A DNA stretch of 64,000 nucleotides from Escherichia coli (GCF_050320075.1 NZ_CP190018.1); one strand, 5' to 3'. Positions 30,001-36,000 are shown, counted from the first letter of the stretch. Made by a program: the numbers.

Positions 30001-33000
30001 ATACTTGGGATATTATGTTGATACCAATGATTTCTATCAATATTAATAAAGGTTTTCTTTCCCGGGAAGGAACTTAGTATTTTGTAAAGAGTGAATTTTC
30101 CTTTAGGTGTATTAAGTGCGGAAAAAATAACAAGGTGAGTATCAAATTCGTCATCTTTATGTAAAATGAAAGGGTTCATACGATTATCTCAAACAATCAT
30201 TTTTAATAATTAAAATTTCTTTATCCCAATTATGAGAATATTTTATTTTTTGGTTTTTTTCCCCATTAGGTCCTTTAAGTGCATCATTTTTATTGAGGCT
30301 AAAACCGAGCACGTCATCATTTGCTAATTTTCCGTTAATTTCTTTTATCCAAGATAAAACTTGAACTCCTCCGCTTGGCGGTGATGATATTTTTTTACAT
30401 AACGACTGGTAAATATCAAATGGAATACAGGTAGTAGGAATATTTGACTTATAAAAATCGTAGAAAAAGTCAAATGCTGAAGGAGAACGGTCTATATGAT
30501 TAGTACCCGTTATTATAACAGCTTTTAAGCCAGCTAAAGACTTTCTAGAGACTTCTTCAAATGAAGGTGATTTTACCCAAATGTCAGTTTTTACTCCTAT
30601 ATCAGCTCTTCGGTTAAGGCTCGTATCGTAGCTATTAAATCTAATTACGATATTGCACTTATTTATCTCTTTTCCCTTTTTAATCCCTCTTTGGTTTGGT
30701 GAATTACCTATGATTTTAATATTATCTTTGTTTTTCTTTAATAAAGAAACTATGATATCTTTGCTATTTTCCACAAAATTATAACACCGAGCCAGTTCTC
30801 TGATATATTCACCTTCATCGAAGTCTAAAGATGAAATATAATTTTCGTCATTACTAATGATATTGGCCAATCGAAGATATTGTTTCTTTCTGAAAATGGA
30901 AGGTGATTTTGCTATACACTTTTTAGCGAGAATTATAGCATCTTGATAATTTCCACTTTCGGCAAGTATTGATGATAAATCAAATTGTTGATCTATCGTA
31001 AGATTCGCTGTGATGGGTGACTTAGCAAATTTTACCATCTCTTTGTTTATGCCAAAATAAATCCATTTTGTTCTGTAATATAGATAGGAAAGAGTTGGCG
31101 TGTATTTTTCTATTGGTTTTACTCGCTTATAAGCATTATCTAATTCGCTTCCAAATTTTCGCTTTGCTATGAGCGGGCGAATGGTGTCAGAAAAAAGCCA
31201 ATTATTAAAGTTTTTATTTAACCTTAATATTATTTCATTTTTTTTATTTTTTTTCAAGAGCATGTCTTGAGCGAATTTTTTTGGGGATTTAATCAATTTT
31301 AATATTTTTTTATTAGGTATATGGGGTGGAGTTGTTTTTATATAATTCATTGGTGGTTGTTGTTCTTGAGAAGGAAGTTGCTTTTTTCGTTGTGTTGGTG
31401 GATTCATAATAGCTTCAATTAAAGGGTATAGAGATATTTCAAAACCATCCCAATGCCCCTTGTCATATATATCAGATACTGGGAGTTGGCGTATTTTTAA
31501 ATATTCTAAGAAAATATCTCTTCGTTTTTTGGGGATATGTATGTTAGATAACCAGCGTTCTTTTATATTTCCGTCATGGCATTCAACAACTATTCCTTTA
31601 TTTTGAAAAATGCCATAACCTAATGAATATATATTAACTGGGTATTGCATTGCTTCTATTATAACAGTTGAGTTAACGGCGATTAATGCTAACGAATCAC
31701 TTAAACTATTTGATAATTTTTCTTCGTTATCAAAGCTTATATTATCTAATTTTTCAATTGAATAGTTGTTTTTATCCCGAGGATGCTTTCTTATTACAAT
31801 ATGAATATCTTTAGGAAGTGAGGTGCGTATATGATAAATTAGTTCCTGATGACTGAGTTGAAGTGGATATGATTCTTTATCTAAAGTAGTATCTCCGGGT
31901 AGTTGCAGTGCAAGAATCACTTTTTTACTATAAGAAGTTAGAATCGTTTCATTATTGTCAATTGTATAATTATGCGTTAGTTCTTCTAGTGATTTAAATC
32001 GGATACTACTTTTATAGTTTGCGCCCATATAATCAAAATATATATTTCCATTTTGTGGTAACCATCCTAATTCAGAATAAACAGTGGGTATAGAGCGAAG
32101 CGAATAAAGTTCATCTAAAGCATTATTAAAAAATTTAGTGTTGCCATTAAATATAAATAGCATATTCGGATTAGATGCTAGAAAGTCTTCAGAAAGTTTC
32201 CTCAAATTAAATCGCCAATCATAAAATGTATAGTTTTTGGGAGATATTGGGAATTTTCTCGAGAATTTGGTATTGTAATTTAACTCTTTTCTGGAAACGA
32301 AATGATAGTTATTTATTACTGAGCTTAAAAGCCCGCCCCACATCTCTTGTGAGTGTTCATTCATCATAGACAGACCAAATACATCTAGTTTATTATCTAG
32401 ATAATTAGATGCGGCATTTTTGTATGCTAACTTTATTGAGGTATCTGATGCAGTATAAAGATTGTTCTTTATATTCTTGCTTATACATAGGGAATTATTG
32501 CCATTAATTATATTAATTATATTTGAGATATATTTCCTATTGTTTTCAAGTATAAATTCTTCAACGATTTTTCGGTTAGGCGGTAACTGTGATAGCTTGT
32601 CAATTACAGCTGCACTAAAAGTTATTAAATCTTGATAGTGTATTAACGTTAAAAGCTCTGCTGGGTAACATTCTGAAAACCCCCCTACGTCCCAAGCCAC
32701 AACATGACATGAACAACTAATCGCTTCAGCCGCTACTAAACTAAAACTTTCAAATCGACTAGGGATTATACATACTTTTGATTTTTTCAATAGTTCTAAT
32801 TTTGTTTCATTATCAACCCACCCTAAAAATTCAACATTACATTTAGAATTGATAAGATTAACATAATCTTTTTCGGTAATGTTAATGCCAATAATCTTAA
32901 TGTTTATATTATTTGGAAAGTGAGATATTAATTTTGAAAGATAATCGCTTCCTTTTACTAAATCAAGCCGTCCTACAAAAATAACATCAATATCTTTGCA

Positions 33001-36000
33001 AGTAACTTCTTGATACATAAAAGGTATAGGGTTGGGAAAAATAGCTACATTGGGTAAAGAAAAACCGTATGCTTGGTAGTTTTTTAGACTTGGTGATGAA
33101 ATATAATCAGCCTTTATTGCAGAGTCTAACTCTCGCTGATAACGATTCAAGTTAATGGTTACTTTATTTAATTCTTGTAATAACTTAGAAGGGGCATGCA
33201 GTCGTACATGTCGTTTGAATTTTGTATGTGTTTCATTATGATAAAGCCCCCACGCATCTGGAAGTTCGACAATATCATTTTCTGTGGCTATACTGTTTAT
33301 CTTATCTTCTAATTGTTTAGGGGATAATCTTTCGTCATTCCTAATAATCTGTGCATCAATGCCATTTTCTAATAGTAGATGATATGCACTCGCCACATAG
33401 TTCGAAATTCCATTGTTTTTATGTGAAAAAGGACTTACGAAGTAATATGTCATTGATGATATCCTCGATTATGTAAAATAAAGTTAAGATAATTAAATGT
33501 TAGCTAAAGGTAAGCTCTATTAAAAGAGTTAAACTATGGTATTAATGCTTTCATCAAAAATGTAATTTTCGATCGCATGCTTTACATCTTTATAAACTGT
33601 TATGTGATTGTCTCTACCGATATAGATTGCAATATCACAATATGATTTTAATAAATTCATACTATGGGAAACCATTAAGAAACTTGATTTTTCATGCTTT
33701 TTATTAAAGAGTGATAAACATTTCTCCTTAAATCTGGCATCTCCTACAGCCATAACTTCATCAACAAGATAATAATCAAAATCAAATGCCATGCTGAGTC
33801 CAAATCCTAACCGAGAACGCATGCCAGAAGAATATGTTTTTATTGGCATGTCAAAGTATTTCCCCAGTTCGGAAAATTCCTCTACAAATGAAACCTTATC
33901 TTGCAGCTCATCTTTTTTAGCATAAAGTCTTGCAACAAATTTAACATTTTCACGCCCTGTCAGACTGCCTTGAAAACCACCAGCTAAACCTACTGGCCAT
34001 GAAATGGTTTGATCAGTAAGTATTCTCCCCTTATCTGGTCGATCTATACCACCTATCATTCGAAGCAATGTTGATTTACCTGCACCATTGCGTCCAACTA
34101 AAGCAACACTTTTTCCTGTGGGTAATTCAATATTTAAATCTTTAAAAACATAATGTCTTCCTTTAGGTGTACGATATGATTTGGTGAGATTCTCAATACG
34201 TATCATGAGGTTAACATAGCCTCCTCTTTGAAACGGTAAAGGCAAAGTCCTACGAAAAACACTACTAAAGAAAAAAATGCAAGATAATTAATACTAACAC
34301 CTTCACTTATATATCCCGGTACAACAGATTGGCGACTTAACTCCACAACATGTACTAAAGGATTCCATAATAAATATCCCCAGTATATTTTAGGGATAGA
34401 ATGGAGAGGAAACATTACGCAAGATATGAAATAAAGAGGTTTAATCATTATGGGCAAAAATTTTTCCGTTTCTGGGAAAGTTTTACCTAACACCATGAAA
34501 ATTAAACCTATACCAAGAGAAAATATAATAAGTAATCCCCAAGTTGCAGCGAGTATAATGATGTTTAAAAATGAAAATTCTTCTCCAAGTAGACCTACAA
34601 TTGACATGAGGATTATGTAAACACCACTATATATTAATGCTTCAAGAAGGGTTCGTGAAATTATGGTGTCAATAGGCTTTATAGGCCTGTAATTAAATAA
34701 GCCCTGATTAGAGTTTATTGCTCCAATAGAGCGGACAGCAATATTACTAAAAAGAAAATAAGGGATAAGTCCGTTTAGAAGAAACACTGGGAACGATATA
34801 TCTGGCATAGTTCTATGCATAATATATCCAAATATACCAATCAAGATTATCAAATGTGCTGTTGGCTCAAGGAGTGCCCATAAATACCCCAGACGATATT
34901 TACCAAAACGAGTCTTAATTTCACGAAGAAATAAAGCTTTTACTGCTGCTATTTGAACTTCAAAACCACTTCTTCTAGCCATTTGAGATATAACCTTAAT
35001 ATATTTTGGTACGCTACCGCCCTTGGCTCTAGCTACCAGCATGCTCGGGCGTACCATATGAGACAAACCAGAATGGACAGATAAATATTTCGTCTGGTAT
35101 TAGTTTGTCTTTTCTTTACGAAAATACTTATAGATTGGACAATGAAAAATTTGGTTTAAGGCAGTCCAACCTATGTAATGTTATTGAAACATCCTGCTAA
35201 TAATCTTAAATTTAATGTTTCATTAAGTTCTATCAATTTAAACACATTGATTTGCGAATTCTATCATTTAGACTTACAGATAACTCCAGTGTTTAATATG
35301 TAAACATGCCTCATAAATTGCAAGGTAGATTGCAGGTTGCTAATCTTTTGTTACTTATATAAAATCTGTTTTGTTTATTTTATATCAAATTTTATTTATT
35401 GTTCAATGCAGAATTGATTTCTAATGTAATAGTGTCGCAGTGTAACTGTGACTCCCCATAATAAACCCCATTAACCTGTGTCTTAACCAATAAATACCCC
35501 CGAAACTTCTTAAACAGTTTCATATCTGGTTTAAAATCAGCCTGCCAGAACTGGTGCAAATGCCCTTGATACGTTAAGCCTTTGATGTCGTACAGGGCAT
35601 TGCCCATCACTTTGAGTGGTTTGTTATGAATCAGCGCAGAGATCCCCGCCGTACTGTTAATTGTTACCACCGCTTTTGCATGGCGTAATAGTTCCGGCAT
35701 CGGGAGATCGTGCACATAAATGACTCGCTCCCCTAAGCCATATTCCTTACTTAGCCGCTTAATTAATGGTCGATAGAGTCTGTGACCACGATCCATCGGA
35801 TGATGTTTGATCACCAAATAACTCTCTTTCGGCGCTTTACGCGAAAATGAGTACATGACTTCATTAATATAGTCACGCACATCGTTATAATTGCTGTGGT
35901 TACGAATTTGGCTATCGTTATATACCTGCAAAACGGCAAGATAATAACGTTGATCCAGGTCATTCATTAACCTCGGCAATACCTTACGCTGTGTTACCTT

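What the first reader, a model, noticed from the sequence alone, without database searches (positions are those of the whole stretch)
30184..33453. Single 1089-aa polypeptide with three glycosyltransferase-like domains as the likely capsule polymerase
N-terminal third has a GT4-type retaining fold signature (ESFSLVAAEA, E-x7-E). The middle has the KHP ... VNST ... signature shared with KpsS/KpsC beta-Kdo transferases encoded in this same locus. The C-terminus carries a sialyl-motif-like IIGNSPNQ ... CNIVIRFN as in CstII/GT42 and GT29 enzymes that use CMP-activated sugars. Region 2 has no CMP-sialic acid genes, while kpsF/kpsU supply CMP-Kdo, so a Kdo-containing polymer is the simplest prediction. 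Three GT modules for what may be a disaccharide repeat is unusual; one may be inactive, or the repeat unit may be larger.
Basis: partly seen in the sequence, partly recalled or inferred. Interest (0 to 1): 0.85.

Follow-up and report, generated by a model that had tools for sequence, protein, structure and literature searches.

The report
Three-module Kdo capsule polymerase (K111)
This E. coli capsule gene encodes one 1089-residue enzyme with three intact sugar-transferase modules, two of the types that use CMP-activated acidic sugars, so it probably builds a Kdo-rich capsule; the locus is already catalogued as K111, but neither its polymer nor its enzymes have been tested.

Summary
The ORF at 30184..33453 (-) encodes 1089 aa, and every quoted motif is present.

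All three glycosyltransferase-like modules are real:
- **N-terminal GT4:** Pfam E 4.6e-17, with a conserved E-x7-E motif.
- **Middle KpsS-like beta-Kdo-transferase module:** hhalign to the locus's own KpsS gives 96% probability. Its best fold matches are WbbB and KpsC. The catalytic Glu461, Gln517-x3-Asp521 and His557-Pro558 are invariant.
- **C-terminal GT29-like module behind a helical spacer:** the best fold matches are mammalian sialyltransferases, then CstII. Sialyl motifs L, S and VS are invariant.

None of the modules looks degenerate. The GT29-like module is the most conserved of the three.

Full-length homologues in Leclercia, Pseudomonas and metagenomes sit in ABC-transporter capsule loci. 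They lie next to extra kdsA, kdsB and kpsF genes and a conserved hydrolase-TPR partner. This supports CMP-Kdo as the donor.

The locus is already published as type K111 in the 2026 kTYPr catalogue (K111_9 and K111_10). That paper proposes that the related K6 GT29-GT107 protein makes poly-Kdo.

The finding is therefore a correct, mostly anticipated annotation of an uncharacterised enzyme. What remains open is whether the GT29-like module is an inverting alpha-Kdo transferase.

The parts
30184..33453 (-). Whole ORF, 1089 aa plus stop (K111_9 in the kTYPr catalogue; RefSeq WP_162780582 is a 1070-aa version with too late a start)
32464..33453 (-). Module 1, residues 1-330: GT4-type GT-B retaining glycosyltransferase. 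E235-x7-E243, R162, K167 and G257-G258 are invariant.
   Evidence: Pfam PF00534 E 4.6e-17 and PF13692 E 5.1e-16. PDB sequence hits to GT4 enzymes including PimA. dbCAN GT4(157-263) in PMC13171606 Table S4. Conservation.
31402..32373 (-). Module 2, residues about 361-684: KpsS-like retaining beta-Kdo transferase module. Proposed general base E461 (SELGWLPQ), Q517-x3-D521 nucleophile motif (LQLPGDTT), H557-P558 (KHPRD) and N594-S-T596.
   Evidence: hhalign versus window KpsS: probability 96.4%, E 1e-9, with motifs aligned. AF2 pLDDT 90.5. Foldseek best hits WbbB GT99 at E 6.7e-10 and KpsC GT107 at 1e-6. Residues invariant.
31309..31401 (-). Residues 685-715: Pro/Gln/Lys-rich variable linker with no invariant column
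   Evidence: low pLDDT at the end of the middle-domain model
30742..31308 (-). Residues 716-904: all-helical TPR-like spacer. It begins with KILKLIKSPKKFAQD, which matches the N-terminus of the separate K126_10 protein.
   Evidence: AF2 model is helical over residues 3-196 of the 712-1089 construct. BLASTP match to K126_10 residues 3-29. Weak Pfam TPR_2 hit.
30187..30741 (-). Module 3, residues 905-1089: GT29-like (sialyltransferase-fold, GT-A variant 2) module. Sialyl motif L (G916-N-S-P919 ... R938-F-N940), motif S (P1026-S-x-G1029 ... G1050-F-S1052) and motif VS (H1074-x4-E1079).
   Evidence: Pfam PF00777 E 7.7e-6. Profile versus PDB ST8SiaIII E 1.1e-5. Foldseek top hits are GT29 ST3Gal-I, ST6Gal1, ST8SiaIII and ST6GalNAc2, then GT42 CstII. 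36% identity to the K126_10 C-terminus. Invariant residues.
29013..30179 (-). Downstream partner gene (K111_10), 388 aa: alpha/beta-hydrolase domain (G84-x-S86-x-G88, D155/D158 and H182 invariant) plus a TPR domain. It is conserved next to the polymerase in other genera.
33529..34206 (-). kpsT (ABC transporter ATPase) immediately upstream, on the same strand
34203..34982 (-). kpsM (ABC transporter permease); the protein is identical to that of the K126 locus (WP_032152072.1)
35014..35021 (-). ops element GGCGGTAG, 32 nt upstream of kpsM. By established knowledge of kps region 3, this is the RfaH loading site that lets transcription read through into region 2.
   Evidence: position is informative; the count in the window is not above chance
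28945..28972 (-). Terminator-like hairpin (12 pairs plus a T8 run), 41 nt after the K111_10 stop; likely end of the kpsM-kpsT-K111_9-K111_10 unit
   Evidence: consensus match only
35392..43372 (-). kps region 1, kpsF-E-D-U-C-S: CMP-Kdo supply, export machinery and synthesis of the beta-Kdo linker that the polymerase must extend

Best explanation
The gene encodes the serotype-specific polymerase of an E. coli group 2 (ABC-transporter-dependent) capsule, type K111. One polypeptide carries three catalytically competent transferase modules.

- Module 1 (GT4, retaining) is inferred to add an alpha-linked hexose or N-acetylhexosamine from a housekeeping UDP-sugar.
- Module 2 (KpsS-like, GT107-type) is inferred to add beta-Kdo from CMP-beta-Kdo by double displacement. 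Asp521 would form the covalent Kdo adduct, His557 would protonate the CMP leaving group, and Glu461 would activate the acceptor.
- Module 3 (GT29-like, a fold whose characterised members are all inverting) is inferred to add a second Kdo with inversion, that is alpha-Kdo. It is held behind a helical TPR-like spacer.

The product would be a Kdo-rich acidic polymer containing hexose, beta-Kdo and alpha-Kdo. This could be a trisaccharide repeat, or a hexose-Kdo backbone with a Kdo branch. It would be built on the KpsS/KpsC beta-Kdo lipid linker and exported by KpsMTED. The gene is expected to be expressed by RfaH-dependent read-through from the ops site upstream of kpsM.

Shown here: the existence, homology, fold and conservation of the three modules, and the genomic association with Kdo genes. 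Inferred: donors, anomeric outcomes, linkage order and polymerase activity.
For: Domain evidence:
- GT4: Pfam E 4.6e-17.
- Middle module: 96.4% hhalign probability to the locus's KpsS, with the E, QxxxD, HP and NST motifs aligned.
- Confident AF2 models: pLDDT 90.5 and 86.1.
- Best solved-structure matches are beta-Kdo transferases WbbB and KpsC for the middle module. For the C-terminal module they are GT29 and then GT42 sialyltransferases.

The catalytic roles of the QxxxD Asp, the HP His and the Glu base are established for KpsC, WbbB and KrkA (PMC10148158; PMC9587256; PMC12887879).

Conservation: 12 full-length homologues at 41-57% identity keep every motif. Mean pairwise identities are 48% (GT4), 52% (middle) and 60% (GT29-like), against 13% in the linker.

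Context: region 2 holds only this gene and a hydrolase-TPR gene. Homologous loci in Leclercia, a Pseudomonas-like genome and metagenomes are kps-type loci with extra kdsA, kdsB (with or without kdsC) and kpsF beside the enzyme, and no other sugar-nucleotide genes. Another GT29-like/Capsule_synth fusion also sits beside a full Kdo pathway.

Precedent: the K6 locus encodes a GT29-GT107 protein and yields Kdo-homopolymer ions by MALDI-MS (PMC13171606).
Against: No biochemical or structural data exist for K111; the catalogue lists its polysaccharide as unknown.

- dbCAN assigns only GT4 to this protein.
- The Pfam Capsule_synth hit is weak (E 0.0023) and the PF00777 hit covers only 54 of 272 model positions.
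- Foldseek E-values for the GT29-like module are modest (6e-4, TM about 0.4).
- No GT29-fold enzyme has been shown to transfer Kdo.
- K6, which also has a GT4 protein and galE, gave Kdo-only ions. The GT4 module may therefore not act in every repeat.
- A KpsS relative (GT118 KpsS1) transfers pseudaminic acid rather than Kdo.
- I did not check the rest of the genome for other CMP-ulosonic acid pathways.
Confidence: 0.55

Rival explanations
1. The two CMP-sugar-type modules alone polymerise a Kdo homopolymer with two alternating linkages, as proposed for K6. The GT4 module acts once per chain, either as a transition or priming transferase on the KpsC-made linker, or as a non-stoichiometric capping or branching step.
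For: K6 has a GT4 protein (K6_7), a GT107-TPR-GT29 protein (K6_8) and GalE, yet gave Kdo-homopolymer ions. Dedicated transition transferases that prime polymerases are established in other group 2 systems (PMC11666461). The window's GT4 and GT29-like modules are 32% and 36% identical to the separate K126_9 and K126_10 proteins.
Against: Covalent fusion of GT4 with the other modules is conserved across genera and suggests stoichiometric cooperation. A two-module GT4+Capsule_synth protein exists without a fused GT29-like domain (P0016), which argues that GT4 plus a KpsS-like module is a functional pair. The beta-Kdo module here is not orthologous to that of K6 and K126: it is KpsS-like, with no BLAST similarity to K126_10's KpsC-like domain. 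The authors themselves treat the K6 result as provisional.
Confidence: 0.25
2. One of the three modules is catalytically dead and serves only as a scaffold or carbohydrate-binding domain, so the polymer is a simple disaccharide repeat.
For: Pseudo-GT domains occur in multidomain polymerases (general knowledge). Three modules exceed what a disaccharide needs.
Against: All catalytic motifs are invariant in 13 sequences at 41-57% identity. Each module is at least as conserved as the whole protein, and the GT29-like module is the most conserved (60% mean identity, 30% invariant columns).
Confidence: 0.07
3. The GT29-like or KpsS-like module uses a different CMP-activated ulosonic acid (sialic, legionaminic or pseudaminic acid) made elsewhere in the genome.
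For: All characterised GT29 and GT42 enzymes are sialyltransferases. A KpsS homologue (GT118) transfers pseudaminic acid. One GT29-like/Capsule_synth fusion lies next to an HMGL-like gene plus a cytidylyltransferase instead of kdsA.
Against: There are no such biosynthesis genes in this locus or in the orthologous loci, which instead carry kdsA, kdsB, kdsC and kpsF. The KrkA authors argue that retaining Kdo-type enzymes are poorly suited to most other ulosonic acids.
Confidence: 0.05
4. The protein is not a capsule polymerase but decorates another glycan such as LPS or a glycoprotein.
For: Nothing specific was found. WbbB-type beta-Kdo transferases do act on O antigens.
Against: The gene is embedded in the kpsMT transcription unit between kpsT and the end of the kps locus. 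It and one partner are the only serotype-specific genes. The same arrangement recurs in capsule loci of other genera.
Confidence: 0.03

Closest known systems
E. coli K6_8 / K126_10 dual GT107-TPR-GT29-like proteins with their separate GT4 partners K6_7 / K126_9 (kTYPr catalogue, PMC13171606)
   Same: The GT29-like C-terminus is 36% identical to K126_10 over 180 residues (E 1e-28), and the GT4 module is 32% identical to K126_9. Both have a helical TPR-like spacer before the GT29-like module. They share the locus layout kpsFEDUCS-kpsM-kpsT-region 2 on one strand and an identical KpsM protein. The GT4 subfamily is the same, dbCAN GT4_e1638.
   Different: Here all activities are fused into one polypeptide. 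The beta-Kdo module is a divergent KpsS-like domain, not the KpsC-C-like domain of K6 and K126 (cd16439, E 1e-125 to 1e-130), and shows no BLAST similarity to it. There is no galE or acyltransferase; a hydrolase-TPR gene is present instead.
KpsS and KpsC (CAZy GT107), retaining beta-Kdo transferases of the capsule lipid linker
   Same: Profile homology to KpsS. Structural similarity to KpsC. The Glu base, QxxxD nucleophile motif and HP motif are conserved.
   Different: About 20% identity. Pfam is only weakly positive and dbCAN does not call GT107. The domain is embedded in a serotype-specific polymerase rather than acting on phosphatidylglycerol or the linker.
WbbB N-terminal domain (GT99) and KrkA (GT140 + ribofuranosyltransferase; K13/K20/K23 polymerase)
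   Same: WbbB gives the best Foldseek matches for the middle module (E 6.7e-10). KrkA is the precedent for a single multi-module protein making a whole Kdo-containing K antigen.
   Different: 14-16% identity to WbbB. KrkA pairs its Kdo module with a PRPP-dependent ribosyltransferase-phosphatase, not with GT4 and GT29-like modules.
GT29 (ST3Gal-I, ST6Gal1, ST8SiaIII, ST6GalNAc2) and GT42 (CstII) inverting sialyltransferases; bacterial GT29-like sequences described by Petit et al. 2018 (PMC5811610)
   Same: Same fold. Sialyl motifs L, S and VS are present, including the His of the H-x4-E motif VS. PGAP names the protein 'glycosyltransferase family 29 protein'.
   Different: The module is only about 185 residues against about 270-300. 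Identity is 14-21%. It is cytoplasmic and lacks the disulfide-bonded Cys of motifs L and S. No sialic acid pathway is present, so the expected donor is CMP-Kdo, an activity not yet shown for this fold.
Neisseria meningitidis W/Y capsule polymerases SiaD (GT4 hexosyltransferase fused to a GT97 sialyltransferase)
   Same: One polypeptide joins an N-terminal GT4 hexosyltransferase to a CMP-ulosonic-acid transferase to make an alternating heteropolymer (as described in PMC5811610).
   Different: SiaD has two modules, not three. GT97 is a GT-B sialyltransferase. No Kdo is involved.
TPR-containing TagF-like capsule polymerases (Cps3D/Cps7D) and their transition transferases (PMC11666461)
   Same: TPR or helical domains lie inside or beside group 2 polymerases and are needed for elongation. 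The TPR domain of the partner K111_10 matches the Cps3D TPR (8qoy, E 1.2e-7).
   Different: Those enzymes make phosphodiester-linked polymers with TagF-like domains.

Membership tests
CAZy GT4 (GT-B, retaining) | Significant match to the Glycos_transf_1 / GT4 profiles | tested here: met
   PF00534 E 4.6e-17 and PF13692 E 5.1e-16. dbCAN HMMER, dbCAN-sub and DIAMOND all call GT4 in PMC13171606 Table S4.
CAZy GT4 (GT-B, retaining) | [quoted passage not shown] | tested here: met
   E235-x7-E243, R162 and K167 are invariant in 13 sequences.
CAZy GT4 (GT-B, retaining) | Demonstrated transfer of a sugar from an NDP-sugar with retention | not testable with these tools
   Needs an enzyme assay; the donor is unknown.
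Retaining beta-Kdo transferases (GT107 KpsS/KpsC; related GT99, GT140) | Sequence membership in Capsule_synth (PF05159) / GT107 | tested here: inconclusive
   PF05159 E 0.0023 for the E. coli protein, though the precomputed Pfam hit is present in homologues P0008, P0011 and P0013. hhalign to KpsS gives 96.4% probability, E 1e-9. dbCAN does not call GT107.
Retaining beta-Kdo transferases (GT107 KpsS/KpsC; related GT99, GT140) | Invariant QxxxD (nucleophile Asp), HP motif (His) and a Glu general base | tested here: met
   Q517-x3-D521, H557-P558 and E461 are invariant. They align to KpsS LQVYND, HHPMD and FEEGY. Their roles are defined.
Retaining beta-Kdo transferases (GT107 KpsS/KpsC; related GT99, GT140) | Modified GT-B architecture shared by WbbB and KpsC | tested here: met
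   AF2 pLDDT 90.5. The top 11 Foldseek PDB hits are WbbB and KpsC, at E 6.7e-10 to 1e-6, ahead of generic GT-B enzymes.
Retaining beta-Kdo transferases (GT107 KpsS/KpsC; related GT99, GT140) | CMP-beta-Kdo donor, beta-Kdo product, covalent Asp-Kdo adduct | not testable with these tools
   Needs assays, intact-mass spectrometry of a D521C/N variant, and NMR.
CAZy GT29 (sialyltransferase fold, inverting) | Significant full-length match to PF00777 / dbCAN GT29 | tested here: inconclusive
   PF00777 E 7.7e-6 but only model positions 58-111 of 272. Gene3D GT29-like at 833-1084, E 2.4e-9, in the published InterPro table. dbCAN makes no GT29 call.
CAZy GT29 (sialyltransferase fold, inverting) | Sialyl motifs L, S, III and VS | tested here: met
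   Motif L aligns to ST8SiaIII and ST3Gal-I by HMMER. S-like (PPSGG...GFS) and VS-like (H1074-x4-E1079) segments are invariant. The S and VS assignments are by pattern, not by structural superposition, and motif III is not clearly identified.
CAZy GT29 (sialyltransferase fold, inverting) | GT-A variant 2 fold | tested here: met
   AF2 pLDDT 86. Foldseek top 17 hits are all GT29, then GT42 CstII; probability 1.0, E 6e-4 to 5e-2, TM about 0.4 on the target.
CAZy GT29 (sialyltransferase fold, inverting) | Transfers sialic acid from CMP-Neu5Ac | not tested
   No CMP-sialic acid genes occur in the locus or in orthologous loci. This argues against sialyltransferase activity, so the module is filed as GT29-like in fold, not as a sialyltransferase.
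E. coli group 2 (2A) kps capsule locus, type K111 | kpsFEDUCS + kpsMT present; K-specific genes match the K111_9 and K111_10 reference | tested here: met
   Gene content. K111_9 is 1089 aa with PF00534 at 153-261 and PF00777 at 914-965, and K111_10 is 388 aa, matching my own coordinates. Direct sequence identity to the reference contig NZ_NBKV01000062 was not checked, because the draft record is not in the searchable collections.

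The most novel reading that the evidence does not exclude
The C-terminal GT29-like module is an inverting alpha-Kdo transferase, which would be the first Kdo-transferring enzyme of the sialyltransferase (GT-A variant 2) fold. It would work in the same polypeptide as a retaining beta-Kdo module and a GT4 hexosyltransferase. One enzyme would then write a repeat containing both Kdo anomers. 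The large bacterial family of helical-spacer/GT29-like modules (1467 representatives at 50% clustering) would be a previously unrecognised class of Kdo polymerase modules.
Probability: 0.4. Interest if true: 0.7.

Novelty: new member of a known kind. Interest (0 to 1): 0.45.

Why it matters
ST648 and related lineages are multidrug-resistant extraintestinal E. coli, and their capsule is a virulence factor and a vaccine or phage target of unknown structure.

A single 1089-residue enzyme plus housekeeping nucleotide sugars would suffice to make the polymer. That makes it attractive for in-vitro synthesis of a defined antigen.

Mechanistically, the protein offers a direct test of whether sialyltransferase-fold enzymes can transfer Kdo with inversion. 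The field has noted that alpha-Kdo linkages in capsules need an inverting Kdo transferase that has not been identified (PMC13171606). Only GT30 is listed as an inverting Kdo transferase family in PMC9587256.

It would also show how a retaining and an inverting ulosonic acid transferase are coordinated in one polypeptide.

Tried and rejected
- **Domain-only word-indexed searches.** The exhaustive representative search was needed instead.
- **Published Foldseek table.** Table S5 of PMC13171606 is cut off in the stored copy before K111. I predicted and searched the structures myself.
- **Sequence search of the whole protein against the PDB.** This gave only GT4 hits plus a marginal ST8SiaIII hit at E 0.06. 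A profile search raised this to 1.1e-5 but still aligned only motif L.
- **BLASTP of the middle module against K126_10's GT107 domain.** It found nothing, so I rejected the idea that the protein is a simple fusion of K126_9 and K126_10.
- **Promoter scan.** Promoter-like sites were below the shuffled expectation (36 against 42.6), so no internal promoter is claimed.
- **ops motif count.** The ops octamer occurs twice in the window against 1.2 expected. Only its position before kpsM is meaningful.
- **tRNA search.** No tRNA gene is in the window, so the pheV-type insertion site is not visible here.
- **Inactive-module hypothesis.** Considered and rejected on conservation.
- **Sialic acid donor.** Considered and rejected on gene content.

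Full report
**1. What is in the sequence**

The window is an Escherichia coli chromosome segment. The stretch 28000-35400 is 100% identical to 22 or more complete genomes, including strain 'ST648'.

Gene order is as follows:
- gspD to gspM/yghD on the plus strand, ending at 28032.
- An AT-rich gap of about 1 kb carrying an IS remnant.
- On the minus strand, reading in the direction of transcription: kpsF-E-D-U-C-S (43372 down to 35392), kpsM, kpsT, the ORF in question (33453 down to 30184) and a 388-aa ORF (30179 down to 29013).

G+C falls from above 50% to 29-34% across kpsM through the 388-aa gene. This is typical of horizontally exchanged serotype-specific DNA.

The ORF is 1089 codons with an ATG start and a GAGGAT ribosome-binding site.

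RefSeq models a 1070-aa product from an internal GTG. Residues 3-19 are invariant among homologues, so the 1089-aa form is correct.

**2. The three modules**

*Module 1 (residues 1-330).* This is a GT4-type GT-B enzyme. PF00534 gives E 4.6e-17 and PF13692 gives E 5.1e-16. PDB sequence hits are GT4 enzymes such as PimA. E235-x7-E243 is invariant.

*Module 2 (residues about 361-684).* Pfam scores it only weakly (Capsule_synth E 0.0023). Other evidence is stronger:
- A profile of the module aligns to the KpsS of this same locus with 96.4% probability (E 1e-9, 225 columns).
- That alignment places SELGWL on FEEGYL, LQLPGDTT on LQVYNDSQ, KHPRD on HHPMD and VNST on INST.
- The match to KpsC is weaker (70%).

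These aligned segments are the motifs that define retaining beta-Kdo transferases: a Glu general base, the Asp nucleophile of QxxxD and the His of the HP motif (PMC10148158; PMC9587256; PMC12887879).

E461, Q517, D521, H557 and P558 are invariant. This holds even when two 27%-identical relatives are added.

An AlphaFold2 model is confident (pLDDT 90.5). Its eleven best Foldseek matches among solved structures are WbbB (GT99, E 6.7e-10) and KpsC (GT107, E 1e-6), ahead of generic GT-B enzymes.

*Linker and spacer.* Residues 685-715 form a hypervariable Pro/Gln/Lys-rich linker (13% mean identity). Residues 716-904 are all-helical and TPR-like. This segment begins with KILKLIKSPKKF, which matches the N-terminus of the free-standing K126_10 protein. 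That looks like the scar of a gene fusion.

*Module 3 (residues 905-1089).* Evidence for a GT29-like module:
- It hits PF00777 over the sialyl motif L (E 7.7e-6).
- A profile hits ST8SiaIII at E 1.1e-5.
- The model (pLDDT 86) matches GT29 structures first (ST3Gal-I, ST6Gal1, ST8SiaIII, ST6GalNAc2), then GT42 CstII.

GNSP, RFN, PPSGG...GFS and Y-x-H1074-x-W-x2-E1079 are invariant. I read these as sialyl motifs L, S and VS. The S and VS assignments are by pattern only.

**3. Is any module degenerate?**

No. Twelve full-length homologues at 41-57% identity come from Leclercia, Pseudomonas hunanensis, an unnamed gammaproteobacterium and metagenomes. They keep the architecture and every catalytic motif.

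Mean pairwise identity by region:

| Region | Mean pairwise identity |
|---|---|
| GT4 | 48% |
| Middle module | 52% |
| GT29-like module | 60% |
| Helical spacer | 43% |
| Linker | 13% |

**4. Context and donor**

Region 2 of this locus contains no sugar-nucleotide genes. The donors must therefore be housekeeping ones: UDP-sugars, and the CMP-Kdo that kpsF and kpsU reinforce.

Context in other organisms:
- *Leclercia:* the orthologue lies in a kps-type locus between kpsF and a hydrolase-TPR gene, followed by kdsA, kdsB, kpsC and kpsS.
- *A Pseudomonas-like genome:* it is flanked by two hydrolase-TPR paralogues, kdsA, a kdsB-HAD fusion and kpsF.
- *A metagenomic locus:* this repeats the pattern, with the polymerase split into GT4 and middle-plus-C-terminal ORFs.
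- *A different fusion:* a Capsule_synth-TPR-GT29-like protein also sits beside kdsB, kdsA, kpsF and kdsC.

No other sugar-activation genes accompany the orthologues. This is good circumstantial evidence that both CMP-type modules use CMP-Kdo.

One more distant relative lies beside an HMGL-like gene and a cytidylyltransferase instead. The wider family may therefore use other acids.

The helical-plus-GT29-like module family is large. It has 1467 representatives at E no higher than 1e-3 and 107 at 1e-30 or lower, in proteins of 200-1850 residues.

**5. Expression**

The ops octamer GGCGGTAG lies 32 nt upstream of kpsM on the coding strand. A strong terminator-like hairpin follows the 388-aa gene.

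By established knowledge of kps region 3, RfaH loaded at ops carries transcription through kpsMT into the serotype-specific genes. Here that whole cassette points the same way as region 1.

The 2026 catalogue reports such kpsMT rearrangements as frequent. The K126 locus has the same layout and an identical KpsM.

**6. What is already known**

The locus is type K111 (group 2A) in the kTYPr catalogue (Nat Microbiol 2026, PMC13171606). K111_9 is 1089 aa with PF00534 at 153-261, PF00777 at 914-965 and Gene3D GT29-like at 833-1084. K111_10 is 388 aa with alpha/beta-hydrolase and TPR domains. dbCAN calls only GT4.

K111 is not discussed in the main text, and I found no entry for its polysaccharide structure in the stored supplementary tables.

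The same paper reports that K6 encodes a dual GT29-GT107 protein. It found ions consistent with a Kdo homopolymer and notes that both families transfer ulosonic acids from CMP donors.

K126 has a separate GT4 protein and a GT107-TPR-GT29 protein. The window's GT4 and GT29-like modules are 32% and 36% identical to these. The middle module is not related to K126_10's KpsC-like domain at BLAST level.

The protein is therefore not just K126_9 fused to K126_10. It combines a GT4/KpsS-like pair with a spacer/GT29-like unit. The GT4/KpsS-like pair also exists alone in P0016.

**7. Mechanism proposed**

*Shown:* three homologous, well-folded, conserved catalytic modules, and association with the export and Kdo-supply genes.

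*Inferred:*
- GT4 adds an alpha-hexose or N-acetylhexosamine.
- The KpsS-like module adds beta-Kdo by double displacement via Asp521.
- The GT29-like module adds Kdo with inversion, giving alpha-Kdo.
- Together they extend the KpsS/KpsC-made linker into a Kdo-rich polymer.

Whether the repeat is a linear trisaccharide or a hexose-Kdo backbone with a Kdo branch cannot be decided here. A third possibility is a poly-Kdo chain that the GT4 module only primes or caps.

The K6 result keeps the poly-Kdo option alive. Against it stand the conserved cis-fusion and the existence of a stand-alone GT4+KpsS-like enzyme.

**8. Verdict**

This is a new, uncharacterised member of a known kind: multi-module ABC-transporter-dependent capsule polymerases with Kdo-transferase modules. 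It is already catalogued at annotation level.

The interesting residue is the untested prediction that a sialyltransferase-fold module transfers Kdo. Published lists give GT30 as the only inverting Kdo transferase family, and the field has noted a missing inverting enzyme for alpha-Kdo capsules.

Noticed in passing
window 29013-30179 (-); L003 13289-14464; L005 8803-9984 and 15614-16810; L007 5493-6674: The 388-aa gene after the polymerase encodes an alpha/beta-hydrolase domain fused to TPR repeats. A Ser86 (GxSxG), Asp155/158 and His182 set is invariant in four homologues at 28-45% identity. It is always adjacent to the three-module polymerase, and present twice in the Pseudomonas-like locus. 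Its function is unknown; an O-acetyltransferase or esterase acting on the polymer, or a polymerase-binding factor, are guesses.
   Followed up: partly
window 34203-35066 and 35014-35021 (-); L002: The kpsM-kpsT-region 2 cassette, with its ops element 32 nt before kpsM, points in the same direction as kpsFEDUCS and sits directly after kpsS. So kpsM is not the gene next to yghD. The K126 locus has the same layout and an identical KpsM protein (WP_032152072.1), which suggests cassette exchange downstream of kpsM.
   Followed up: partly
window 33397-33453 (-); L001 14396: RefSeq/PGAP starts the protein at an internal GTG (1070 aa, WP_162780582.1). The 19 residues it omits contain 11 invariant positions, including the Gly-rich loop SPFSxKNNGIxNY, so the annotation is truncated.
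   Followed up: yes
window 28033-29012, especially 28711-28908 (-): An AT-rich (32% G+C) spacer of about 1 kb between yghD and the end of the kps locus carries a 65-aa fragment annotated as 'integrase core domain-containing protein'. This is an IS remnant at the cassette boundary. RefSeq also annotates a partial IS110 transposase just beyond kpsF.
   Followed up: no
L004 13289-15689 (Leclercia CP031101.1): In one Leclercia genome the hydrolase-TPR partner gene is interrupted by an IS (rve-family transposase), while a second sample (L003) has it intact.
   Followed up: no
L007 6692-9974: A metagenomic orthologue is split into a 461-aa GT4 ORF and a 657-aa middle-plus-GT29-like ORF that overlap by 77 nt. 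This may be a natural two-protein version or a frameshift. Strain FDAARGOS_536 (hit H14, 99.8% identity) also carries two annotated glycosyltransferase features under the match.
   Followed up: no
L008 850-5785: A 1106-aa Capsule_synth + GT29-like protein lies next to an HMGL-like (aldolase or synthase type) gene and a CMP-sugar cytidylyltransferase rather than kdsA. This suggests that some members of this module family use a different CMP-activated acid.
   Followed up: no
window 31264-31308 (-), residues 716-730: The segment KILKLIKSPKKFAQD in the middle of the protein matches the extreme N-terminus of K126_10 (KILKLIKNPKIFFHD). It marks a probable fusion junction and may be a short basic amphipathic membrane-association helix.
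   Followed up: partly
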